Source of the DNA: a phage
Length of the DNA: 58,547 bases
Reading direction: 5' to 3' (one strand)
NCBI GenBank assembly: GCA_027568095.1
Contig: GCA_027568095.1_4956.1
A model generated the notes under the pieces. The model ran no database searches. It had not been told where the DNA came from and worked only from the letters and a program-made list of their open reading frames with translations. Made by a program: the position numbers and the translations under genes. Shown piece after piece: positions 2,265 to 48,606 of the stretch; position 1 is the first letter of the stretch; the number at the start of each line of letters is the position of its first letter.

Positions 2265-2458
2265 AACTAACAGAAGCACAAGATTATCAGCGTAGAATTT
2301 TAGATCTCATTAAACAGTTAAACCGCACGATACACGAAGCCTCAATCGTCGGAATTAATGTTGAACTTGATTTATACGAAGAACAAAAACTAAGTGGTGT
2401 AAACACTGTTGTTCTTGACGGAAAAGTTACCATCAAACCACAGGACATTGAACTATGA
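2261..2458 (+). CDS. hypothetical protein (65 aa)
   Basis: GGTGGTG RBS; ATGA overlap with upstream ORF. Confidence 0.5.
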   Translation: MKLTEAQDYQRRILDLIKQLNRTIHEASIVGINVELDLYEEQKLSGVNTVVLDGKVTIKPQDIEL

Positions 2459-3145
2459 ACTTCTTTAAAAACGCTATTATTTATCGTCTGACTAACACGA
2501 TGGCATTAATGGCCCAGTTACCAACGCTGGAAGACAGTCTGTGTGCGTTTCAATTCATGTGGTTCACAGGATATGGCGCGTACTGGATGGATTCCGGCAA
2601 CTGAACAACATCATACACTGGTTCACCAGGCTAACGGGTTGATCGTGGTTGATGCGTCTAGTGCTAAACGGGCTGAAGATGCGTTAGCGCTGTTGCGTAA
2701 ATCCTTGAGTAGTCTGCCTGTAGTCCCACTGACAACTGAAAACCCTGTTGAACTGACAACAACGGAGTGGGTACGTTCAGGAAACGCGCCAACAGGTTTT
2801 ACAATGGGTGACGCTGCTGAACTGAAAGCAGTCCTGACTGACGGCGGTGTTGCACGCGTTAAAAAACAGGATTTAACCAGTGATGAAATAGCCACACATA
2901 TTGAAGCCGGGAAAGTCGTTACAAAACTGGCGATGGACTGGCAGCAGCGGGTAACGTTTACGCTAACTGACAGCATGACGTTAAACCGTGTGAAATTCTG
3001 CGACGAACTGATGTGCCAGAACGACGATGTTGACCTTGAAGACAGTCTGGTACGATTCGACGCTGATTTTGTACTGATGACAGGTGAACTTTCAATGCTG
3101 ATTAAACAACTTATCACTGCTTTGGGTGGGGAGGCTAAACGATGA
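2455..3145 (+). CDS. rdgC: RdgC-like recombination-associated protein, reading frame interrupted by a 1-nt shift near 2540-2545
   Basis: N-terminus [13 protein letters not shown] in frame A from ATG 2455 (resembles the RdgC N-terminus as recalled); [11 protein letters not shown]...[28 protein letters not shown] in frame +1 (track ORF 2543..3145); frames join if one nt is removed in the TGTGTG tract. Confidence 0.5.
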
Positions 3146-5007: not shown

Positions 5008-5775
5008 ATGAAAAAGAATATTTTTAAAGAATTTGCTGATGCAATGGGTAGTTTACGCGAGGCTGTTGATTATCTTGCTAAACACGACGTTAAAATTTCA
5101 GTTGGTCGTTATAATGAATGGATGGCTGGCAAGCAGTACCCACTGGCTACCACGCTTAACGTCATCATGAAAAAACTTGGGTTACCGAATCTGGACCCGG
5201 TGATTGATGTTGGTGAGGTTGTTCTTAAACGCACAATACCAGTTACCGAACTGCGTCAGAAATTACCACACAGACGTTTTGCTAATAACTACTGGCAACG
5301 TGTCAGATACGTTGATTCACAGATCCTGGAAGCTGTTCACGGTCACGACGTGTGGACACGGTTTGAGGCGATGTGCGGTAATTTTGAATGTGCAAGATAC
5401 GTGTTACGCAGGAATTTAAACAAACACACAATTACTGACAGTTGGATTCAGAATGGTTTGCGCCGGGGCTGGATCCCGGAATGTGTAAACGTAATGGTCG
5501 ATTTGCTTGAAAAATACGAAGGCACTGGGACACCGTTTAACGTGATGGTTTGTGAACCACCTGTAGCACGAGTGGAACCACCTGTAGCACGAGTGGAAGC
5601 ACCTGTAGCACGAGTGGAAGCACCTGTAGCACGAGTGGAAGCACCTGTAGTCGATGTCAGCGATTTGAAGGAGAAAATCAGACTGTATGCGTTATCACAC
5701 AATCCTCATTGCGATGTAGATAATATGCCGGATGATGTTGTTTTGATGATGTATAAAGATATGATGGGCCAATGA
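5008..5775 (+). CDS. hypothetical protein with in-frame PVARVE tandem repeats
   Basis: Strong RBS; 21-bp repeat x about 4.6 encodes (E)PPVARVE units. Confidence 0.5.
   Translation: MKKNIFKEFADAMGSLREAVDYLAKHDVKISVGRYNEWMAGKQYPLATTLNVIMKKLGLPNLDPVIDVGEVVLKRTIPVTELRQKLPHRRFANNYWQRVRYVDSQILEAVHGHDVWTRFEAMCGNFECARYVLRRNLNKHTITDSWIQNGLRRGWIPECVNVMVDLLEKYEGTGTPFNVMVCEPPVARVEPPVARVEAPVARVEAPVARVEAPVVDVSDLKEKIRLYALSHNPHCDVDNMPDDVVLMMYKDMMGQ
5554..5655 (+). repeat. 21-bp tandem repeat (gaa[c/g]cacctgtagcacgagtg) x about 4.6, in-frame coding
   Basis: Direct inspection of 5554-5655. Confidence 0.8.
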
Positions 5776-5779
5776 AGAT

Positions 5780-5804
5780 AGCGGGGCTAACTACCCCGCT
5801 TTTT
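5780..5804. terminator. bidirectional intrinsic terminator between convergent genes
   Basis: AGCGGGG-CTAACTA-CCCCGCT + TTTT between stops at 5775 (+) and 5806 (-). Confidence 0.6.
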
Positions 5805-5805
5805 G

Positions 5806-6144
5806 TTAACAGAAGGGTTCGTTTTTCCAGTCACCATCCTGTTTAAGTATGTAAGGTTGATAATCTGTTTCACCCGTTTCAACATGTTCCAGATTACCCT
5901 GACGATTCGTTTTAAACTTACCCAATGGTAAATACTGACGCGGGAAAACGTTATGCCATTTACCGTATTCGGTATCTTTTCCATCTTTGTATTTAACGGG
6001 ACCACACGCTGAACATAATCGTTTACCTTTCCTTTCAGGTGCATATGACCAGTCGTATAATTTTTCAAAGAAGCCGTTAAATCCCTGAGAAGACAGAGCG
6101 GTGTTTTCAACACATCCACAGTTTTCACATTGAAACAAACTCAT
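5806..6144 (-). CDS. zinc-ribbon protein (CxxC...CxxC)
   Basis: ORF with CENCGC and CSACG cysteine pairs. Confidence 0.45.
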   Translation of the reverse strand: MSLFQCENCGCVENTALSSQGFNGFFEKLYDWSYAPERKGKRLCSACGPVKYKDGKDTEYGKWHNVFPRQYLPLGKFKTNRQGNLEHVETGETDYQPYILKQDGDWKNEPFC

Positions 6145-7034: not shown

Positions 7035-7189
7035 GATGGTTGTACCTCTGTTTGTTTTTCTGCCTTCAACACCATGCGAGAACCATCATCCAGTTCCCAC
7101 GCGATCTCACCACCTTTAACATCGCGCATTTTTGCCAGCATGATAGTTTTTGATAGTGGTGAAAAACCAAGTTGAAGTTTAGTGCTCAT
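7031..7189 (-). CDS. small protein (52 aa, below track cutoff)
   Basis: ATGA overlap with HD gene start; fills gap between 7192..7464 and 6465..7034. Confidence 0.35.
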   Translation of the reverse strand: MSTKLQLGFSPLSKTIMLAKMRDVKGGEIAWELDDGSRMVLKAEKQTEVQPS

Positions 7190-7191
7190 AT

Positions 7192-7464
7192 TCAATACCC
7201 TTTTAATTTTCTACACTCAGGACAGCGCCATCTACCTTTTTGGTAAACTCGCGCATGACCACGTTTACATTTATTGGTTACCAGTGATATACCGAGAAGT
7301 GACGCTTTAATGTGCACCGCTTCAACGTCACGGCGAAGGTAATACGCTATTTCGTCCGCACTGATCTTCCCCGCATTAATTTTTAATAACGCCAGATCTC
7401 GTGCGGACCATTTCAAACCGTTACGAGGGAATCTGTTAGTTGTATCAGTTGAATGTTCATACAT
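7192..7464 (-). CDS. hypothetical protein with C-terminal zinc ribbon
   Basis: ORF; C-terminal CKRG...CPEC. Confidence 0.45.
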   Translation of the reverse strand: MYEHSTDTTNRFPRNGLKWSARDLALLKINAGKISADEIAYYLRRDVEAVHIKASLLGISLVTNKCKRGHARVYQKGRWRCPECRKLKGY

Positions 7465-7977
7465 TCACCATCCTTTGCGAAGCTGTATGGCGAATTCACG
7501 AACTATTTTAATATCCTTGTCATCCCACAAAAGACCGTTTAAATAATCACCGAAAGTATCCACCCCCTGCGCCCGGACTTCAGCCAGGAAAGCATCGGTG
7601 GCTGGGGTGTCTGATTGCATAGACTTTGCGCGATAGTCATTCCACCCTCTTGCATACATGGGATTAACTTGCACTCCATCTTTTACGCAATATGCCTGCC
7701 CTCCACGGTTGATAACCTGGATTTCGTCCATAGCGCCAGACTTCAGCCTCGTATTCTCCGCCGCCAGCGCCGAAAACTTCTCGTGTGCCAACTTAACAGC
7801 TGCATCAGCCTGCTTAATTGACTCAATCGTTTTCTGTTGGTCTTCGGACAGAGCCGAAATCTTAGCCTCCGCTTCAGCAAATTTACGCACCAGATATTCA
7901 GCATTTGTTTCGTTAACCTTTAAATCTCGTGGGATGCATTTACCACGAAGAAAACCTTCCATTTCATATACAGTCAT
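7465..7977 (-). CDS. hypothetical protein (170 aa)
   Basis: GAGGTG RBS 6 nt upstream of ATG. Confidence 0.5.
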   Translation of the reverse strand: MTVYEMEGFLRGKCIPRDLKVNETNAEYLVRKFAEAEAKISALSEDQQKTIESIKQADAAVKLAHEKFSALAAENTRLKSGAMDEIQVINRGGQAYCVKDGVQVNPMYARGWNDYRAKSMQSDTPATDAFLAEVRAQGVDTFGDYLNGLLWDDKDIKIVREFAIQLRKGW

Positions 7978-8214
7978 TTAACGCACCTCGACATCAATCA
8001 TTAAATCTTCTGGTACTGTCACCACAACGCGGTCGTTTTCGCAAAATGGTGATAGCGGTTCCTCTTCCGGTTGTAAGCGAAGGGTAAGTGTTGCCCCGTG
8101 GTAATTGATATAACGCACCCAATACCAGTCGTTAAATACTTCAATCTTGTCACCCGGTTTAATATTACGGGCAACGGTTGGATTCATCAGTCGGATAGTC
8201 ATACTTTCACCCAT
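7978..8214 (-). CDS. hypothetical protein (74-78 aa)
   Basis: Two candidate ATGs (8214 or 8202); 8202 forms ATGA overlap with upstream stop. Confidence 0.45.
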   Translation of the reverse strand: MGESMTIRLMNPTVARNIKPGDKIEVFNDWYWVRYINYHGATLTLRLQPEEEPLSPFCENDRVVVTVPEDLMIDVEVR

Positions 8215-8423
8215 CCTTTACCACGGATACAACGAATCAGACCACGTTTTTTTAACGCTTGTAAACGGCGATCCAATACGCGAAATCCTTCATATTTAAC
8301 AGTTGCTAATTTTTCACATTCTTCACGAACATCACGAACAAAGATATTCATAAATTCTGTTGGGTGACCACCGATTTTATTTAAAATCAATTTGTCGAGT
8401 TTTTCATATTTGTTAGTTTTCAT
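8199..8423 (-). CDS. hypothetical protein (74 aa)
   Basis: GGCGGG RBS; operon context. Confidence 0.45.
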   Translation of the reverse strand: MKTNKYEKLDKLILNKIGGHPTEFMNIFVRDVREECEKLATVKYEGFRVLDRRLQALKKRGLIRCIRGKGWVKV

Positions 8424-8493
8424 AGTTACCCGCCTATTGATACAGTACGTACTTCTGGGTCATACGATGCTGAAAATTCGTCAGTAACATCTC

Positions 8494-8613
8494 TCACATA
8501 ACGAACGTAATTATTAAATTCACCCCCCCGTGATCATGGTATTTAATGATCACTGTTGCTTCTGGTGGCATTTTCTTTAATTGTTTAATCAACTCACGTA
8601 CTGTCACAGTCAT
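8494..8613 (-). CDS. small protein, possibly truncated at a C7/G7 homopolymer (8523-8529)
   Basis: ATGA overlap with upstream gene; with one extra G the frame would run to TAA at 8426-8428, abutting the next start. Confidence 0.3.
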   Translation of the reverse strand: MTVTVRELIKQLKKMPPEATVIIKYHDHGGVNLIITFVM

Positions 8614-8771
8614 TTCTTCTTACTCCCGGTTACTTTAGCAATCCAATAATTTTCATTAACGCTGGGAAAACTGTTATTGAACTTACACTGACGTTCTTCT
8701 TCTTTTGTCAACGGTTTAAATTTAGAACGACAGGTCAACGTACCGTAAATTGATGTTAAGTTGTCTGACAT
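8610..8771 (-). CDS. small protein (53 aa)
   Basis: GGAG RBS 7 nt upstream of ATG 8771. Confidence 0.4.
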   Translation of the reverse strand: MSDNLTSIYGTLTCRSKFKPLTKEEERQCKFNNSFPSVNENYWIAKVTGSKKK

Positions 8772-8947
8772 AAACTAGTCTCCTTTAGTGCGCAGGTGGT
8801 TTTTCCAGCGGTTTTGCGCCGCGCTGCGTTTATATTTACAAAGTAAAACGTCACCAGAATGTTTAAGTATTACTAACCATTTTCTATTACTGATTCGGAA
8901 TGGTCTATTCTTTTTAATAAATAAAAGTTTTGCCTTGCGGTTTTTCA

Positions 8948-9712
8948 TCACTGGTAATCCTTCAATGCTTTTAACGCTTCAAACTGTTCAGTCGTTAGTT
9001 CGATAAGAATTTTACCGTCTCCCCGAGGTGCCACAGACCATCCGCCACGGATTGCTTCCACTGCAGATCGTACCAGTTTAGCAGGCGGACGACGCGTGAC
9101 TACTGGTTCTTTATCACCTGCTTTAAACTGGCGAATGGCTGCTGATGCACTAATTTCACCGTTCTGAATACGACGTTTAAGTTCCAGTGGCATATCAAGA
9201 ATATTCAGTTGTTCGTAAACATGTTGGACGGTTTTACCAACCTGTGTAGCAATCTGCTCAACACTCATGCCATATGAACGGAAACGACCGTAAATAACAG
9301 CACGTTCAACAGGCGACCACGGTTTACCCTCGTTACCTTTTAACAGTGTCAGGGTCTGTTGCAGTTCGTCACCGGACGATTCAACAACGTCTACTGTCAG
9401 AATCGGCGTCCCGGCTTCAATAGCTGCTAACACGCCACGTAAACGATGCTCACCATCCTGAACATATGGAACACCGTCAACAACCTGTACCACGATGGGT
9501 GGAACGAAATCGCCGTTGGTATAAGCCTGACGAAAGTTTTCAATGTGTGCCAGTGCTGCTTCAGTTTCCCAGTAGTTGTCGGTAAACACACCGCGTGGGT
9601 TATGCCCTGGACGAATCTTGATAATACGCGGATCAATACGATACGCATTACCACGTTTTACATTGGTTTTATCGGTATCAGATAGCTTGCGAAGGGAGTT
9701 AATGTTAGCCAT
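8948..9712 (-). CDS. ParB-like nuclease domain protein with C-terminal HTH
   Basis: DGEHRLRGVLAA ParB/Srx-type motif; later SVEQIATQVGKTVQHVYEQL HTH-like. Confidence 0.55.
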   Translation of the reverse strand: MANINSLRKLSDTDKTNVKRGNAYRIDPRIIKIRPGHNPRGVFTDNYWETEAALAHIENFRQAYTNGDFVPPIVVQVVDGVPYVQDGEHRLRGVLAAIEAGTPILTVDVVESSGDELQQTLTLLKGNEGKPWSPVERAVIYGRFRSYGMSVEQIATQVGKTVQHVYEQLNILDMPLELKRRIQNGEISASAAIRQFKAGDKEPVVTRRPPAKLVRSAVEAIRGGWSVAPRGDGKILIELTTEQFEALKALKDYQ

Positions 9713-9746
9713 TTGTGTTTAGCCTCACGTGTGTTAACTGAGGCTA

Positions 9747-9775
9747 ATTATCGGGGAGGGTTGGCAATCTGTCAA
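9747..9775 (-). promoter_or_regulatory. conserved-family promoter (TTGACA-17-GATAAT) for ParB-like gene
   Basis: Reverse complement of 9770-9788 is AAAATAATTCTTGACA; -10 GATAAT at 9752..9747; overlaps stop of upstream gene. Confidence 0.5.
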
Positions 9776-9778
9776 GAA

Positions 9779-10141
9779 TTATTTTAAGAAGTTGGTCAGC
9801 GGTTCGAAACGTTTTATACAATCAGCAGGTACATAATCAGTGATTGACTCCCACGAAAAACGACCGGGTTTATGTTGTAAATTAGTAGCGTTTATAACAG
9901 CAACACACCATTCATCAACAGAACCACGATAACCCATTATTGATATAGCCTCAACAGGATTAAAGGTAATGAACACGGGGTGGAAACCGTATAAATTATC
10001 ATAACCACAGGAACGGATGGGAACACCTAACCCACGTTGAAAATCAAGATCACCACGAAGAAGTTTTATCCCCGGTACGATACCTTTCATCAGGATACTT
10101 TCACGGTTTTCCACTTTAGTAATATGATACGCATCAACCAT
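9779..10141 (-). CDS. hypothetical protein (120 aa)
   Basis: ORF start overlaps stop of upstream SLOG-like gene. Confidence 0.45.
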   Translation of the reverse strand: MVDAYHITKVENRESILMKGIVPGIKLLRGDLDFQRGLGVPIRSCGYDNLYGFHPVFITFNPVEAISIMGYRGSVDEWCVAVINATNLQHKPGRFSWESITDYVPADCIKRFEPLTNFLK

Positions 10142-10530
10142 ACGGAACCCACACAGTTAAACCAGCTTTTAACATGCGACGGTGCATATCAGCAGTACCA
10201 CGCCCACCGGGGAACACAACACCGTATGTAGGGCGTGGTTCACCCTCTAACATCGCCTGATTACGTTGATGACCTGCAACAGCGTTATAAGGCCCGTGCT
10301 TACCTTGTTTTACAACCGCACCTGGTACAGTCAGATCATCCCACGCTGCCGGGCAACTACGCACAGGAATACTGTGTAACTGCGCCCATTGCTTACACAG
10401 GTTATCAACACCTGACGCACCACCTTCAATTAGTTCGGTAATGGGGGAATTGTTTGTGAAGTAGTCCTAACGCGGAAAATACTGCTGTTCTGTCGTTGAA
10501 GTCACGACCACCTGTAACGACTATTATCAT
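10134..10530 (-). pseudogene. SLOG/DUF2493-like Rossmann-fold protein interrupted by a frameshift in a C5/G5 tract (10443-10447)
   Basis: ATG 10530 (ATGA overlap with MTase-like stop) gives MIIVVTGGRDFNDRTAVFSALGLLHKQFP then stop; +1 frame continues ITELIEGGASGVDNLCKQWAQ...FPGGRGTADMHRRMLKAGLTVWV. Confidence 0.5.
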
Positions 10531-11207
10531 TGTTTATTAGCCTCAAATACAGCGCGAGCAAAACCACGCGGGGTTAATGAACGTAACTGTTTAGTTGTTT
10601 CAGATTTACCACCCAGATATTTCCAGCCCCAGAAAAAGCCGATGTTAATCGGTCCGGGACGTTTTTCAGGCATTCTGAAACCGTTACCGAACCACAGACA
10701 CGTTTTCTTCGTGTACCCGTCAAACATCGGCATTTTAGGGTGAAAAGGTTTATCATCTGTTGTCATATAACCGCCATATTCCCATGGGTGAAAATAAGCG
10801 TCAGGTGTCCCCATCATTTCAGGACGCGATAAAGCACCGACAGGGTTTTCCACCATCCAGGGTACGTTATAACGTTCTCCGAGTTCCCGGATCAGTTTTG
10901 CGTTTGCCAATGCATACTGTAGTTCAGCGTCATCTCGGTCATGTTGCGAACCGCTTTGAGCAAACAGGGTGCAATCCGGAAAACCAAAAATAATTGACGG
11001 TAAAGGTGTTCCCAGTATTTCCTGCTTAATTGCAAATTGTGGGTCAATCCACTGATTAACGTAATGAAGATTTGGGTGATCAGCTTTAATAAAATATTCC
11101 CCGTGATTAGCGGAATCAGCATTAAAACAATAAACCTGATAACCATGTATCGCCCACGGTAAGCCCATAATCCCGGAACCATCGAATAACGACCAGACAA
11201 TTTTCAT
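10527..11207 (-). CDS. DNA methyltransferase-like protein (cytosine-C5-MTase-like motifs)
   Basis: LFDGSGIMG (motif I-like), GFPDC (PC-like), MVENPVGAL (ENV-like); assignment tentative. Confidence 0.4.
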   Translation of the reverse strand: MKIVWSLFDGSGIMGLPWAIHGYQVYCFNADSANHGEYFIKADHPNLHYVNQWIDPQFAIKQEILGTPLPSIIFGFPDCTLFAQSGSQHDRDDAELQYALANAKLIRELGERYNVPWMVENPVGALSRPEMMGTPDAYFHPWEYGGYMTTDDKPFHPKMPMFDGYTKKTCLWFGNGFRMPEKRPGPINIGFFWGWKYLGGKSETTKQLRSLTPRGFARAVFEANKQ

Positions 11208-11419
11208 CCTTCTGTCTCCTCGACGATCCGCGTGATTTTAACAGGCGCAATTGTTACTTTTCTACAATTGAAACCCTGATCGCGAAGTGCTTTAAGTGCA
11301 ACCCCAGCCATGTAAGTTGAACTGAACAGAGTAGCTTCACTGATATCGACCCAGGTAATCCGGGTATCAATATGTGCATAACGGTCTTCTTTTTTGATTA
11401 CAGCACCGAACTCAGTCAT
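11204..11419 (-). CDS. hypothetical protein (71 aa)
   Basis: ATGA overlap with downstream gene. Confidence 0.4.
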   Translation of the reverse strand: MTEFGAVIKKEDRYAHIDTRITWVDISEATLFSSTYMAGVALKALRDQGFNCRKVTIAPVKITRIVEETEG

Positions 11420-11609
11420 GATCGTTTTTCACTCCCCACATGCAAGCGCCAATTGATGCCGCAGCCGCTAATAATCCAAGACCAGCCAGAAACCACCACG
11501 GCGTTTCCGCATGATTACCACGTGTCATTAGTCCGACAATACAAGACGCGAGCGTTACGGACACAAGGAAAACAATAACAGTAATTAAACGGTCAAATAT
11601 GTTTTTCAT
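11412..11609 (-). CDS. small membrane protein (2 predicted TM)
   Basis: Hydrophobic segments ITVIVFLVSVTLASCIVGL and WWFLAGLGLLAAAASIGA. Confidence 0.45.
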   Translation of the reverse strand: MKNIFDRLITVIVFLVSVTLASCIVGLMTRGNHAETPWWFLAGLGLLAAAASIGACMWGVKNDHD

Positions 11610-11850
11610 GGTTTTTACCTTTCCTATATTCAGGATAGAATTTTGACATAGGCCATACCCAGAATTTAAAAATCATTTTGAAAGTATCTAATTGTGGGTA
11701 AGCATCAAACATACTCTGTTGATGTGTGTCCCAACCACTTTCGTCAGAATAATAAAAATCAATCATTTTTCTTTGTATGACAGCACAAATAATTATACGT
11801 ATAACGATGATTATCCAAAATACAAGTATGAAAATACTAGTTATTAACAT
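11593..11850 (-). CDS. small membrane protein (about 85 aa)
   Basis: First ATG at 11850 with GGAAG RBS; N-terminal TM ITSIFILVFWIIIVIRIIICAVI. Confidence 0.4.
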   Translation of the reverse strand: MLITSIFILVFWIIIVIRIIICAVIQRKMIDFYYSDESGWDTHQQSMFDAYPQLDTFKMIFKFWVWPMSKFYPEYRKGKNHEKHI

Positions 11851-12076
11851 GGTTTTTCTTCCAGTTCCATTCGCGACGTGCAGCCGCTGATGTTGTTTGA
11901 TAAGTGTGACCACAGGATTTACAACGACAGGTGTAAGCGTTTCCGTTTTTACCTGTTACATCAACATTTTCCCAGTTGCGTGTACCAAACCCTAATAAAT
12001 AATCACGTAGATTTCGCTCATAACATTTACTACAACGTAACGAACGAGTTCGACGACATGATCCACGACCACCCAT
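11837..12076 (-). CDS. zinc-finger protein (79 aa)
   Basis: AAGGTG RBS 8 nt upstream; Cys pairs CSKC...CRCKSCGH. Confidence 0.45.
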   Translation of the reverse strand: MGGRGSCRRTRSLRCSKCYERNLRDYLLGFGTRNWENVDVTGKNGNAYTCRCKSCGHTYQTTSAAARREWNWKKNHVNN

Positions 12077-12078
12077 TA

Positions 12079-12291
12079 TTAGTTCACCTTAGCCCACACA
12101 AGTTTATGAATAGACGTTCTGTATTTTCGCGCGGTTATATTAAAATCATGACCCTCGTGATAAATACTTTCGTGTTTCTTGAAGCTGTTAGCAATTAACG
12201 TGAAAGGTAATAGTTGCTTCAGACGATAAAAATAAAACCGTGTTCCGTTAGGACACTGTGAAAGTCTCATTAATCGGTAGCGTGGTTTCAT
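12079..12291 (-). CDS. hypothetical protein (70 aa)
   Basis: AAGGAG RBS 8 nt upstream of ATG 12291, downstream of promoter at 12323-12352. Confidence 0.45.
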   Translation of the reverse strand: MKPRYRLMRLSQCPNGTRFYFYRLKQLLPFTLIANSFKKHESIYHEGHDFNITARKYRTSIHKLVWAKVN

Positions 12292-12322
12292 AACAATCAC
12301 TCCTTGTTCACTTGATGTACAG

Positions 12323-12352
12323 ACTATAGCGCACACATCTGTAATTCGTCAA
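12323..12352 (-). promoter_or_regulatory. conserved-family promoter (TTGACG-18-TATAGT)
   Basis: Reverse complement of 12347-12365 is AAAATAATTCTTGACG. Confidence 0.5.
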
Positions 12353-12381
12353 GAATTATTTTACACATCCTTGTGCAATGA

Positions 12382-14736
12382 CTAACCGTTACTCGCAGGT
12401 GGGAAAGGCACTACATTAGCTGTTGACTGAAAAGGGAGAAGACGAATACCCCTGAAACCGTTTAGTCGAACGTTATTTATATTAACAACGTCTTTTTTCA
12501 CTTTACCACGAAGTGTGGATTTAAATGCCCGACTAAATGAAGTTTTAGTCATTGCTGGACCACCTTCCTGTGTTTTCCAGAGACGATAACGACCATATAG
12601 TTCTTCAGTGTGCACCTCACCATCAGATACCAATTCGCAACAATCTCTGATAAAACTTCTAAGTGGTGATTGTTGATCCATAATTTCCTGACGTTCTTCC
12701 AGACTTGCTTTTGGTTCAGTAAACCGTCCGTTAGCACGTAACCGTTGCAAACCTTCAATCGCCCAGTTACAGATCCCAGGTAGTTCTTTCATCAGTCGTG
12801 CTTCCAGAGTGGTGTCTTCACGACCCAGGAACGAAACGTTGAATGGCAGGATCAGCAAACGGTTAGCCATTGCACCGGAATCATCAGCAAATGCCGGGAT
12901 GTTGTTAGCAGCCAGTGTCATACGTCCCGGTAAACGACCGTTCCACGCACCTTTATACTTACGATTAACCGGAATCGCATCACAACCTGTAATAGATTTG
13001 AAACGGTCCAGAATTCGGTTGCGATCAGGCCCGGACACACTGTGAGCATCACCAATAAACAGCACAGATTTATCCAGCACAGTTTCAAGTACCGCATCAC
13101 TTGCTAAACCCTCCAGTGTGATCCCTGCATATGCTTCGTCACCTACCAGTGCCTGAATAATACGACCGATCGTACCTTTACCGGAACGTGGCGCACCAAT
13201 CAACAGCATCGCTTTCTGATAGTCATACGAGTTGACAAGCATATAACCCAGCCATTCCTGCAACAGTGCAATACGTTCCTGATCACCTTCCAGAGTTGTA
13301 TTAAGAAACTGTTCAAATGCTGGCGCACGGGCAAACGGATCGTAGCTATACGGTAAAATACTGGTCGTAAAGAAATCCGGGTTATGTGCATCACATTTGC
13401 CCGTGTGTACATCCAGTATTCCGTTCTGACAAACAATATAGTGTGATACATCAACGCCGGGCCATGTTCCAAGCTCACGATCAGCCCGTGTGAATAAATA
13501 CGACAATACCTTGTACGTACCATTGATCACGTCAGCTTTTGGTTCGCTGGCAAGCATTGCCATAGAAATTTGATGTTTCAGTTCATCTTCACTGACACGT
13601 TCCCACACGCGACCGTTGAACCGGTACGGCTGTTGCTGGACGAAAATCAATGTGTTGTTCGGATAATAATTATTAACGAACGTGGATGCGTTAACCGTGT
13701 GGTTTGAACCATATGCACCTTCACCGGGTTTCACACTCATGTACGCAGGTGTTCCACCATTAGGAACGATTGTAGGCGCTGGTGTGACTGCTTTCATCAG
13801 TTCTGGTGTCAGCGTCGGTTGACTACGATAAACCGTATCACAACGTTCCACAGCGCCCAGAATTGTGTTTTCACGGTAATCCTGACGATCTGTCCATTTA
13901 CCACGAACCAGTCCGGAACGGTTAAATAGACGTTCAATACGTTCGCAATCTTTCCCGGTCCAGAAAGCAAGGTGTGAGCACAGAGCAGCATCAGCGGCAG
14001 ATGCATTGTAGTCTTTTCCCTGGTCGCTGGGATATGACACAGACAGGCGTTCAACGTTTGCATTCCACAGATCCGCAAATGACGCTTTATTACCAAATAC
14101 TGAAGCAGCACTGGACGAATTTAACGCCATTTTAATCAGTTCATCATCGTCTGCCGGGCCTGACCAGTCATCACAGGGTGCTGTTGTCCAGCGTGCGGAA
14201 CGGTCTGAACGGATACGACCATACCGGGCAATAGAATCATGAATGCCCTGGGTATAATCAATATCAACATCACCATTACCCGTGAGCGTCATCGCGACGA
14301 AACGATCACGCCAGTACATTTCCAGCCCGGTTTTCTGGTCGTTCAGACTGTTAAAACCTTCCGGTATGCTGGTATAAGCACAGATGATATGCAAACCTGT
14401 TCCTGACTGACTGACTTCAGTGTAAGCATTTGGGAAACGGTTTACGAATTCATGCGCCAGTGGTGACCATGTAGCTGTTGCCTGATCTACCAGACAGTTA
14501 TCAACATCAATAAAGAAATAAGGATCGTTTTCTGTGAATACAAAACCAACACCAGACATACCGTACATTTGTGCCATACCTAACGCGGTGTGATAGTCAG
14601 ACCAGTCGTTAGGGTTAGTGGTACTGGCTTTATAACCGTGTACCGGGCTATATGGTACTTTCGTTGGTTTTGGACGATCGGCGACTGTCTCAAGTCGCCA
14701 CATGACCCACTGTTTACGGTTCAGTAACCCTTTCAT
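12382..14736 (-). CDS. DNA primase/helicase (primase-like N-terminus + P-loop NTPase helicase)
   Basis: 784 aa; Walker A GAPRSGKGT; GGAGCG RBS. Confidence 0.65.
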   Translation of the reverse strand: MKGLLNRKQWVMWRLETVADRPKPTKVPYSPVHGYKASTTNPNDWSDYHTALGMAQMYGMSGVGFVFTENDPYFFIDVDNCLVDQATATWSPLAHEFVNRFPNAYTEVSQSGTGLHIICAYTSIPEGFNSLNDQKTGLEMYWRDRFVAMTLTGNGDVDIDYTQGIHDSIARYGRIRSDRSARWTTAPCDDWSGPADDDELIKMALNSSSAASVFGNKASFADLWNANVERLSVSYPSDQGKDYNASAADAALCSHLAFWTGKDCERIERLFNRSGLVRGKWTDRQDYRENTILGAVERCDTVYRSQPTLTPELMKAVTPAPTIVPNGGTPAYMSVKPGEGAYGSNHTVNASTFVNNYYPNNTLIFVQQQPYRFNGRVWERVSEDELKHQISMAMLASEPKADVINGTYKVLSYLFTRADRELGTWPGVDVSHYIVCQNGILDVHTGKCDAHNPDFFTTSILPYSYDPFARAPAFEQFLNTTLEGDQERIALLQEWLGYMLVNSYDYQKAMLLIGAPRSGKGTIGRIIQALVGDEAYAGITLEGLASDAVLETVLDKSVLFIGDAHSVSGPDRNRILDRFKSITGCDAIPVNRKYKGAWNGRLPGRMTLAANNIPAFADDSGAMANRLLILPFNVSFLGREDTTLEARLMKELPGICNWAIEGLQRLRANGRFTEPKASLEERQEIMDQQSPLRSFIRDCCELVSDGEVHTEELYGRYRLWKTQEGGPAMTKTSFSRAFKSTLRGKVKKDVVNINNVRLNGFRGIRLLPFQSTANVVPFPPASNG

Positions 14737-19710: not shown

Positions 19711-20610
19711 ATGGCACAGAAAGAATCTTTTGTAACTCCGGTTGGTCGTCTGGTTGGCGGTTCTTTTTTCGATATCAACACTCATGACCACGAAAATAAA
19801 CCGTTAGCACCTGAAAAACACAACTGGTGGGTTGGTCTGGCGTTTCCTAAAACAGCGGCGAACTGGTGGGAAGAACAAGGTGAACTGGGTGCGGTATTCC
19901 AGGCGATCATGCGAGCGGCTAACTCACACTATGTGAACGGCGAACCACAACAACCCACTTTCGCATGGAAAATTATTAATGGTGACGATCCGAAACATGC
20001 GAGTAAAACTGGTTATGCTGGTCACTGGGTAATTGGTTTCTCACGCAACGTGGCTATTGACGCGTGTCCGGTTTATAACGCAGCGTACCAGCTAGTTATT
20101 GATAAAAATCTGGCGAAAAAAGGTTATTATTACCGTATCAGCGGATCATCTGTTGCAAACGGTCGTACAGGTAATCAGGCTGGTGTGTATATCAACATGG
20201 AAATGGCGCAATTGCTTTATGCAGGTGAAGAAATCATTTCCGGTCCGGCTCCTGCTTCTGTGTTCGGTGCTGCTCCTGCAATGCCTGAAGGCGCACGTCC
20301 GATCGGCGTAACACCAGCGGCAGCACCTGTAGCAGCACCTGTAGCAGCGGCAGCACCTGTAGCAGCGCCTACACCAGCGGCAGCACCTGTAGCAGCGGCA
20401 GCACCTGTAGCAGCGCCTACACCAGCGGCAGCACCTGTAGCAGCGCCTACACCAGCGGCAGCACCTGTGAAGGTAATGACTGAAAAAGCAGGTGGTGCTA
20501 CTTACGAACAGTTTATTGCGCAAGGTTGGAACGATGAACAACTGATCGCTAATGGTTATATGGTAATGACCACCCCGGCCCCGAATTTTCTCAACGGTAA
20601 CGGTTACTGA
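19711..20610 (+). CDS. possible ssDNA-binding-like protein with PA-rich repeat linker and C-terminal FIAxGWND motif
   Basis: Follows the nuclease gene; (AAPVAAPTPA)n repeats then YEQFIAQGWNDEQLIANGY; SSB assignment is inference. Confidence 0.4.
   Translation: MAQKESFVTPVGRLVGGSFFDINTHDHENKPLAPEKHNWWVGLAFPKTAANWWEEQGELGAVFQAIMRAANSHYVNGEPQQPTFAWKIINGDDPKHASKTGYAGHWVIGFSRNVAIDACPVYNAAYQLVIDKNLAKKGYYYRISGSSVANGRTGNQAGVYINMEMAQLLYAGEEIISGPAPASVFGAAPAMPEGARPIGVTPAAAPVAAPVAAAAPVAAPTPAAAPVAAAAPVAAPTPAAAPVAAPTPAAAPVKVMTEKAGGATYEQFIAQGWNDEQLIANGYMVMTTPAPNFLNGNGY
20311..20468 (+). repeat. imperfect 27-30-bp tandem repeats (core gcagcacctgtagcagc), in-frame
   Basis: Direct inspection; core occurs about 7 times. 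Confidence 0.7.
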
Positions 20611-47831: not shown

Positions 47832-48606
47832 AGCTGATCAAGTCTTCCAGACTGTCACGATGTGGTGTTTCAGTGTTGGAATAGAAACGAACCGCTTTTA
47901 ACAACATCAGAAACAACCACCCTTCGCCCGGTGTTAAGTCGCGCCCGGTAATTGTGTTAAACGCAGCAACGATTTTAGCTGACGAACGTTCCTGACCAGA
48001 CGTGTCATACTGCTTACCACGTTCTGTCAGTAGCTGTTCAGCCTGTTTCAGTAAGTCAGACGCTGTTGATGGTTGTTGAACGGGTGTGAATGTACACCGA
48101 CAATTTGACGGTGGTGTTGGTCTAGGTGCACTGGTTACTGTTGATGGTTGCTGAACAGGTGTGAATAGATGCGCCAGGTGTAAGTCTGCTAATGACTGTT
48201 GTTCATATTTTGTTATTTCATCATTGGTGCGAACAGCATAACCATGTTCGACTAACTGGTCGTCATTCCACCCATTTGCAATGAATTCGTCATAAGTGTT
48301 CTCACGGGCTTTCGGTGTCATAAACAGTTTTGTTTTGACAGGTGTTGCAGGACCACAAGGGCGTTTTTCAAAGATTTCAAAGTCATCAGCATTCTCCATG
48401 ATTTGTGGCGGATTTCTTAAAATTGGTGCGTGAATTGAACCATCAGACCATGCAAAAGTGTTTGTTGTCTTATTAAGAACAACACATGTAGCCCAGTCTG
48501 GCGCTTCACTCCAGTCTACTTGTTGTGTTTTCATTCGATAGTCAAGTGATTGTTTTTCACTTTCAGCATCATATGCAGGTATGTTCCACGGTTGTTCAAA
48601 CATCAT
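47788..48606 (-). CDS. hypothetical protein with internal FIAxGWNDxQL motif and TPVQQPST repeats
   Basis: YDEFIANGWNDDQLVEHGY matches C-terminus of 19711..20610; duplicated FTPVQQPST. Confidence 0.5.
   Translation of the reverse strand: MMFEQPWNIPAYDAESEKQSLDYRMKTQQVDWSEAPDWATCVVLNKTTNTFAWSDGSIHAPILRNPPQIMENADDFEIFEKRPCGPATPVKTKLFMTPKARENTYDEFIANGWNDDQLVEHGYAVRTNDEITKYEQQSLADLHLAHLFTPVQQPSTVTSAPRPTPPSNCRCTFTPVQQPSTASDLLKQAEQLLTERGKQYDTSGQERSSAKIVAAFNTITGRDLTPGEGWLFLMLLKAVRFYSNTETPHRDSLEDLISYAALHAEEYLNNER

What the first reader, a model, noticed from the sequence alone, without database searches (positions are those of the whole stretch)
10134..10530. SLOG/DUF2493-like gene interrupted at a C5 homopolymer
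From ATG 10530 the minus strand encodes MIIVVTGGRDFNDRTAVFSALGLLHKQFP then hits a stop; the +1 frame continues ITELIEGGASGVDNLCKQWAQLHSIPV...GVVFPGGRGTADMHRRMLKAGLTVWVPYG, which is the expected continuation of this domain family. Removing one C from the run (plus G5 at 10443-10447) restores a single 132-aa ORF. Explanations: homopolymer sequencing error, a genuine pseudogene, or slippage-dependent expression.
Basis: seen in the sequence. Interest (0 to 1): 0.4.

Follow-up and report, generated by a model that had tools for sequence, protein, structure and literature searches.

The report
Frameshifted SLOG (DUF2493) phage accessory gene
One extra C in a short run of Cs breaks a small accessory gene of this Sashavirus-like phage that is intact in every relative examined, so it is most likely an ordinary, very recent inactivating mutation and not a recoding signal.

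Summary
On the minus strand an ORF starts at ATG 10530 and meets a C5 run (10447..10443). It stops after 34 aa, and the +1 frame continues open to the stop at 10136..10134.

The window is a Sashavirus/9NA-like siphophage. Every related copy compared at nucleotide level (10 GenBank phages, 13 metagenome/Logan contigs, 3 IMG/VR contigs) has an intact 396-nt gene. The Pro29 codon varies freely among them (CCC, CCG, CCA), so the slippery run is not conserved and no relative needs a frameshift. I found no stimulatory element.

The C5 allele is reproduced exactly in a separate k-mer assembly of SRA run SRR12769694, which is 100% identical to the window over 6,231 bp. The window has 260 homopolymers of 5 nt or longer, and this is the only one that breaks a conserved ORF. 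Downstream of the shift, all 9 internal codon differences from phage Bas82 are synonymous.

Best reading: a genuine, very recent C4-to-C5 insertion that makes a pseudogene. A residual read-level error is less likely. At most about 1% incidental +1 slippage at CCC-C is possible. Low interest.

The parts
10134..10530 (-). Frameshifted YAcAr/DUF2493 (SLOG) gene: 397 nt here, 396 nt in every relative compared
10443..10447 (-). C5 homopolymer (G5 on the plus strand), the site of the 1-nt insertion. Relatives have TTC CCC ATT (C4), TTC CCG GTT, TTT CCG [A/G]TT, TTC CCA [A/G]TT or CAC CCG ATT
10426..10530 (-). Frame-0 truncated ORF of 34 aa. It keeps only 3 (G7, G8, R9) of the 19 invariant family residues
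10134..10442 (-). +1-frame continuation (residues 30-131 of the repaired protein). It carries G36, G40, D42, W63, R89, N90 and the PGGxGT motif. It is fully open, and residues 29-130 of the repaired protein are 100% identical to Bas82
10527..11207 (-). Upstream 226-aa ORF, annotated in relatives as a cytosine-specific DNA methyltransferase (no Pfam hit here). Its stop overlaps the SLOG start (ATGA)
9779..10141 (-). Downstream 120-aa ORF of unknown family. Its ATG overlaps the normal end of the SLOG gene (ATGGTTGA), so any translational coupling would be lost in the C5 allele (inference)

Best explanation
This is a genuine and evolutionarily very recent one-base insertion (C4 to C5, by slipped-strand replication error at a short homopolymer) in the accessory YAcAr/DUF2493 SLOG gene of one Sashavirus-like phage lineage. 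Translation from ATG 10530 terminates after 34 aa. Neither that peptide nor any internal restart product contains the full set of conserved Rossmannoid motifs, so the gene is functionally a pseudogene. The intact protein in relatives is predicted, not shown, to bind or process ADP-ribose-derived nucleotides as a counter-defence function. It is evidently dispensable for propagation on the host used. Incidental +1 slippage of tRNA-Pro on CCC-C could restore a trace of full-length protein, at most about 1%, but this would be a by-product and not a design. Shown here: the insertion, its uniqueness, its reproducibility in a second assembly, and purifying selection in relatives. Inferred: loss of function, dispensability, and the trace slippage.
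For: (1) Every related copy compared at nucleotide level has an intact 396-nt gene: 10 GenBank phages, 13 metagenome/Logan contigs that share an identical flanking gene, and 3 IMG/VR contigs with in-frame run variants. The 90%-identity cluster P0001 alone has 202 member sequences. (2) The C5 allele is present in a Logan assembly of SRA run SRR12769694 that is 6231/6231 identical to window 7134-13364. It occurs in no other fetched locus and in no IMG/VR contig. (3) The assembly is not homopolymer-error-prone. It has 260 runs of 5 nt or longer. In a tblastn frame-switch scan of 349 relative ORFs, the only window-specific frame switches were this gene and the RdgC homolog, and the RdgC lesion is not at a homopolymer. 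(4) The same phage carries a second, unambiguously real gene decay: the RdgC homolog has a 5-nt non-homopolymer deletion plus a ~216-nt internal deletion, also reproduced in SRR12769694. (5) The event is recent. Between codons 30 and 130 the window differs from Bas82 at 9 codons, all synonymous. Relatives show 13-25 synonymous against 2-4 nonsynonymous codon differences. (6) Of the 19 invariant family residues, 3 lie upstream and 16 downstream of the shift.
Against: I could not inspect raw reads or learn the sequencing platform. I also cannot tell whether SRR12769694 is the same read set that produced the window; if it is, the agreement excludes an assembler or polishing artefact but not a systematic read error. 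A single residual homopolymer miscall would look identical at consensus level. The complete absence of downstream decay fits an artefact as well as it fits a very recent mutation.
Confidence: 0.74

Rival explanations
1. It is a sequencing or consensus error. The real phage has C4 and an intact 131-aa gene, and the extra C is a homopolymer miscall carried into the consensus.
For: The lesion is a +1 indel in a homopolymer, the classic artefact type. The downstream frame is perfectly preserved, with 0 nonsynonymous changes against Bas82 over codons 30-130. The closest relatives in this gene have exactly C4. The allele is seen only in material identical to the window.
Against: A separate k=31-type de Bruijn assembly (Logan) of run SRR12769694 gives C5 inside a 14.7-kb contig that is 100% identical to the window over the 6,231 bp compared. 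That implies accurate reads in which C5 k-mers dominate (my inference about the assembler). None of the other 259 homopolymers of 5 nt or longer breaks a conserved ORF. A 5-nt run is short for a consensus-level error on any current platform (general knowledge).
Confidence: 0.2
2. It is slippage-dependent expression. The C5 run acts as a functional +1 ribosomal frameshift site (CCC-C, tRNA-Pro re-pairing) or a transcriptional slippage site, so that the full-length SLOG protein is made at a tuned, reduced level.
For: CC[C/U]-[C/U] motifs allow tRNA-Pro to re-pair in the +1 frame without energetic penalty, giving up to ~1% +1 frameshifting in E. coli at the most shift-prone position, the 2nd codon (PMC4519876). 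The required shift here is exactly +1 at CCC-C, and the product would equal the ancestral protein.
Against: No relative needs a shift, and the run is not conserved: the Pro29 wobble base is C, G or A and the preceding codon is TTC, TTT or CAC. By inspection there is no SD-like element upstream (CACAAACAAUU) and the 0-frame A-site codon is CAU, not a stop. There is no downstream structure beyond shuffled controls (z = -0.07). The site is at codon 29, not codon 2. Five C's are far below the run lengths known to give transcriptional slippage (general knowledge).
Confidence: 0.03

Closest known systems
YAcAr / DUF2493 (Pfam PF10686) SLOG proteins of Sashavirus and Nonanavirus phages, e.g. Sasha gp75 (YP_009787849.1), PDP46_0086 'SLOG cluster4 family protein', Bas82_0080 'GTP-binding domain'
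   Same: Same locus, just downstream of the gene relatives annotate as a cytosine methyltransferase and upstream of ParB. The repaired protein is about 95-98% identical to the Sashavirus/Nonanavirus homologs, and residues 29-130 are 100% identical to Bas82. It has the same 131-aa length and all 19 invariant residues.
   Different: The window copy has one extra C (C5 instead of C4 or CCG or CCA) and is split into a 34-aa ORF plus an out-of-frame remainder. No other copy examined is split at this site.
Viral YpsA-like SLOG domains predicted to sense or process ADP-ribose derivatives, often adjacent or fused to NADAR or Macro domains (Iyer et al. 2022, PMC9503650)
   Same: It is a standalone small SLOG protein in a phage early or accessory region. 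In several relatives the next gene is a NADAR/YbiA protein (L022, L024, KP13-27), which matches the published SLOG-NADAR neighbourhood.
   Different: In the window the downstream gene is a 120-aa ORF with no Pfam match instead of NADAR. The biochemical function of this SLOG clade is untested according to PMC9503650, and it was not tested here.
Spontaneous +1 frameshifting at CCC-C proline motifs, and programmed +1 sites such as prfB
   Same: The sequence UUC-CCC-CAU contains the CCC-C motif at which tRNA-Pro can re-pair in the +1 frame, and that is the frame needed here (PMC4519876).
   Different: Programmed sites are conserved and carry stimulators; in prfB these are an in-frame stop at the A site and an upstream SD-like element (general knowledge). 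Here there is no conservation, no stop or SD-like element at the site, and no structure.

Membership tests
Pfam PF10686 YAcAr (DUF2493), SLOG superfamily | Profile HMM score above the curated gathering threshold | tested here: met
   The repaired 131-aa sequence scores 68.8 bits against a 28.2 cutoff, E 3.6e-19, matching residues 1-64 to profile positions 1-64 of 66. The frameshift at residue 29 lies inside the matched domain.
Pfam PF10686 YAcAr (DUF2493), SLOG superfamily | Conserved motifs: N-terminal TGGR(D), GxxxGxD, and C-terminal PGGxGT | tested here: met
   In a 28-sequence alignment, G7 G8 R9 G36 G40 D42 A61 W63 A85 G86 R89 N90 M93 P100 P107 G108 G109 G111 T112 are invariant, and all are present in the repaired window sequence.
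Pfam PF10686 YAcAr (DUF2493), SLOG superfamily | A single uninterrupted ORF encoding the whole domain | tested here: not met
   The window has 397 nt with C5, and frame 0 stops after 34 aa. As it stands, the sequence is a disrupted copy (pseudogene) of a family member.
Programmed +1 ribosomal frameshift site | The slippery sequence and the need to shift are conserved among homologs | tested here: not met
   Ten GenBank phages, 13 metagenome/Logan contigs and 3 IMG/VR contigs all have an in-frame gene. The site varies among CCC, CCG and CCA, and among TTC, TTT and CAC.
Programmed +1 ribosomal frameshift site | Stimulatory elements: a slow or stop codon in the A site, an upstream SD-like sequence, or a downstream structure | tested here: not met
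   The A-site codon is CAU. The upstream sequence CACAAACAAUU has no SD-like element (by inspection). The 91 nt starting 3 nt upstream of the run fold no better than shuffles (z = -0.07).
Programmed +1 ribosomal frameshift site | Measured frameshift efficiency well above background | not testable with these tools
   This needs a reporter assay or proteomics.
Homopolymer sequencing or assembly artefact | Other homopolymer-linked frame breaks scattered through the same assembly | tested here: not met
   There are 260 runs of 5 nt or longer. The frame-switch scan of 349 relative ORFs flags only this site and the RdgC homolog, whose lesion is not at a homopolymer; the two other flagged sites are BDX09P1-specific.
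Homopolymer sequencing or assembly artefact | The allele is not reproduced when reads are assembled independently | tested here: not met
   The Logan assembly of SRR12769694 has C5 and is 100% identical over 6,231 bp. Whether these are the same reads as those behind the window is unknown.
Homopolymer sequencing or assembly artefact | Raw reads show the shorter run as the majority, or strand or platform bias | not testable with these tools
   I had no access to reads.

The most novel reading that the evidence does not exclude
The C5 allele is maintained and not just tolerated. In this reading, low-efficiency +1 slippage of tRNA-Pro at UUC-CCC-CAU yields a small, tuned amount of full-length SLOG protein, making a lineage-specific, newly arisen recoding site in a phage counter-defence gene.
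Probability: 0.03. Interest if true: 0.35.

Novelty: already known. Interest (0 to 1): 0.08.

Why it matters
It matters little beyond annotation. The locus should be annotated as a frameshifted YAcAr/DUF2493 pseudogene, or corrected if reads show C4, and not as two hypothetical ORFs. A modest practical use exists. If C5 is real, this phage is a natural knockout of a predicted ADP-ribose-signal-processing SLOG gene, and it also has a decayed RdgC gene. It could be compared with close intact relatives such as Bas82, from the BASEL E. coli phage collection, on hosts carrying TIR/Thoeris-type defences.

Tried and rejected
(1) An exact look-up of the 34-aa truncated product in the gene-position index found nothing on record. 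Such short ORFs are probably rarely called, so this is uninformative. (2) The gapped pattern AAACAATTN{3,7}TTACCGAACT in metagenome contigs and genome contigs was too permissive. A later exact C5 search over all 276 fetched loci found the allele only in the three loci cut from SRR12769694. (3) A full-text search for SRR12769694 found no paper, so the platform and origin of the run remain unknown. (4) I looked for an RNA structure downstream of the run as a frameshift stimulator and found none. (5) An internal restart at GTG 10364 (76-aa ORF) as a functional product was rejected. No SD-like sequence precedes it by inspection, and it lacks G7-G8-R9, G36, G40 and D42. (6) The frame-switch candidates at window 5793-5826 and 48328-48367 were rejected as window lesions, because the window agrees with Bas82 there and only BDX09P1 differs.

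Full report
**Observation.** Reading the minus strand shows an ATG at 10530 that overlaps the stop of the upstream 226-aa ORF (ATGA). It is followed by ...CAA TTC CCC CAT TAC CGA ACT AAT TGA. The C5 run occupies 10447..10443. Frame 0 gives a 34-aa product ending at the TGA at 10428..10426. The +1 frame reads ITELIEGGASGVDNLCKQW...GLTVWVPYG and stays open to the TGA at 10136..10134. The repaired protein matches Pfam PF10686 YAcAr ("YspA, cpYpsA-related SLOG family", the former DUF2493) at 68.8 bits against a 28.2-bit cutoff, and PHROG 289. So the observation and the family assignment are both confirmed.

**What the window is.** The region, and the whole window, is 95-96% identical to Sashavirus/Nonanavirus (9NA-like) siphophages of Escherichia and Salmonella. 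These include Bas82, BDX09P1, PDP46, AVIO78A, 536P12, Sergei and Sasha. No record in the phage collection is identical to the window.

**Comparison with relatives.**
- In ten GenBank phages that carry this gene it is an uninterrupted 396-nt ORF.
- At the site, Sergei, Sasha, 536P12 and Bas82 have TTC CCC ATT (C4). BDX09P1, PJ16 and PDP46 have TTC CCG GTT. AVIO78A has TTT CCG ATT. The Klebsiella phages have CAC CCG ATT.
- Three IMG/VR contigs show CCCG, TCCG and C4.
- I used the exact sequences of the two flanking genes as handles and recovered 13 further contigs from unrelated metagenomes and SRA runs. Each has a called 131-aa PF10686 gene, with C4, CCA or CCG at the site.
- The family search returned 804 hits, and the 90%-identity cluster around the closest hit has 202 members.

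So the extra C is specific to this window, the run of C's is not conserved, and no relative needs a frameshift. Differences among relatives are overwhelmingly synonymous, with 13-25 synonymous against 2-4 nonsynonymous codons. The intact gene is therefore under purifying selection.

**Real mutation or artefact?** Four results bear on this.
- The 76-aa downstream ORF created by the frameshift is on record as a called gene in exactly one place, a 14.7-kb contig of the Logan assembly of SRA run SRR12769694. That contig is 6231/6231 identical to window 7134-13364 and has C5. A separate k-mer-based assembly of raw reads therefore reproduces the allele. I cannot tell whether those reads are the ones behind the window.
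- The assembly is not indel-prone. The window contains 260 homopolymers of 5 nt or longer. A tblastn frame-switch scan with all ORFs of at least 60 aa from Bas82 and BDX09P1 gave 349 ORFs with hits, and only two window-specific frame switches: this one and one in the RdgC homolog.
- The RdgC lesion is a 5-nt non-homopolymer deletion plus a ~216-nt internal deletion. It too is found only in SRR12769694. So this phage demonstrably carries real decay in another accessory gene.
- Downstream of the shift the window differs from Bas82 at 9 internal codons, all synonymous. The event is therefore very recent. An artefact would give the same pattern, which is the main reason it cannot be excluded.

I put the genuine recent insertion at about 0.74 and a read-level error at about 0.2.

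**Slippage-dependent expression.** UUC-CCC-CAU does contain the CCC-C motif on which tRNA-Pro can re-pair in the +1 frame. Published work reports up to ~1% +1 frameshifting in E. coli when the motif sits at the second codon, the most shift-prone position (PMC4519876). Here the motif is at codon 29. The A-site codon is CAU and not a stop, and there is no SD-like element upstream. The downstream RNA folds no better than shuffled controls (z = -0.07). The site is not conserved. A trace of full-length protein from incidental slippage is plausible, but a programmed event is not supported (about 0.03).

**Consequence.** An alignment of 28 diverse family members shows 19 invariant residues. G7, G8 and R9 lie upstream of the shift. 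G36, G40, D42, A61, W63, A85, G86, R89, N90, M93, P100 and the PGGxGT motif (P107-T112) lie downstream. Neither the 34-aa peptide nor the 76-aa internal ORF can form the Rossmannoid SLOG domain; this is inference. The normal stop of the SLOG gene overlaps the ATG of the next gene (ATGGTTGA), so coupling to the 120-aa downstream ORF may also be lost (inference).

**Function of the intact gene.** Viral YpsA-like SLOG domains are predicted, but not shown, to sense or cleave ADP-ribose-derived signals, and they often neighbour NADAR or Macro domains (PMC9503650). Consistent with this, several relatives have a NADAR/YbiA gene immediately downstream. The window instead has an ORF with no Pfam match.

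**Verdict.** This is an ordinary, lineage-specific frameshift in a known and widely annotated accessory gene. It is most likely a fresh pseudogene and possibly a residual consensus error. It is not novel and is of low interest. The decisive test is a read pile-up or Sanger sequencing across 10,430-10,460.

Noticed in passing
window 2455-3145 (+): The RdgC homolog (Pfam PF04381; 304-305 aa in BDX09P1 and Bas82) is decayed. A 5-nt non-homopolymer deletion at ~2557 shifts the frame after residue 34, and a ~216-nt internal deletion removes residues ~63-134. This leaves ORFs of 49 aa and 200 aa. The 200-aa product is on record only in SRR12769694.
   Followed up: yes
window 9779-10141 (-) and equivalent slots in L004, L007, L009, L011, L012, L022, L024: The slot just downstream of the SLOG gene is a swap hot-spot among relatives. 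It holds NADAR/YbiA (L022, L024, KP13-27), an HNH endonuclease (Sergei, Sasha, Kpn BU9), a 76-aa hypothetical protein (Bas82 and others), or, in the window, a 120-aa ORF with no Pfam match. In AVIO78A the slot holds a 140-aa ORF annotated 'ParB-like protein' whose record note cites similarity to a NADAR family protein.
   Followed up: partly
window ~7560-8840: Short stretches are ~90-95% identical to lambdoid and Stx-converting prophages (small early-region ORFs, one annotated ead/Ea22-like). This is a mosaic module shared with temperate coliphages.
   Followed up: partly
window 5554-5650 and 20315-20468: There are two tandem-repeat arrays: 21 nt x 4.6 copies at 98% identity, and a nested 12/18/30/48/78-nt array. 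Their copy number differs from Bas82 and BDX09P1 by multiples of 3 nt (21-, 42- and 12-nt indels).
   Followed up: no
repaired SLOG protein residues ~66-82 (window ~10285-10335, minus strand): The phage clade of PF10686, plus a few other members, carries a 16-17-aa insert (LTVPGAVVKQGKHGPYN) that is absent from most bacterial homologs in the alignment.
   Followed up: no
proteins P0011, P0024, P0027 (short metagenomic contigs): Rare truncated or tail-swapped variants of the same SLOG gene (90, 101 and 78 aa) exist on 1.8-3.3-kb contigs. They could be independent disruptions, module swaps or assembly chimeras.
   Followed up: no
BDX09P1 (L015/L016) opposite window 5787-5805 and 48369: BDX09P1 differs from both the window and Bas82 by 1-nt indels, two of them in T5/T6 runs, that change ORF ends. 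These are possibly errors or real differences in that unannotated record, not in the window.
   Followed up: partly
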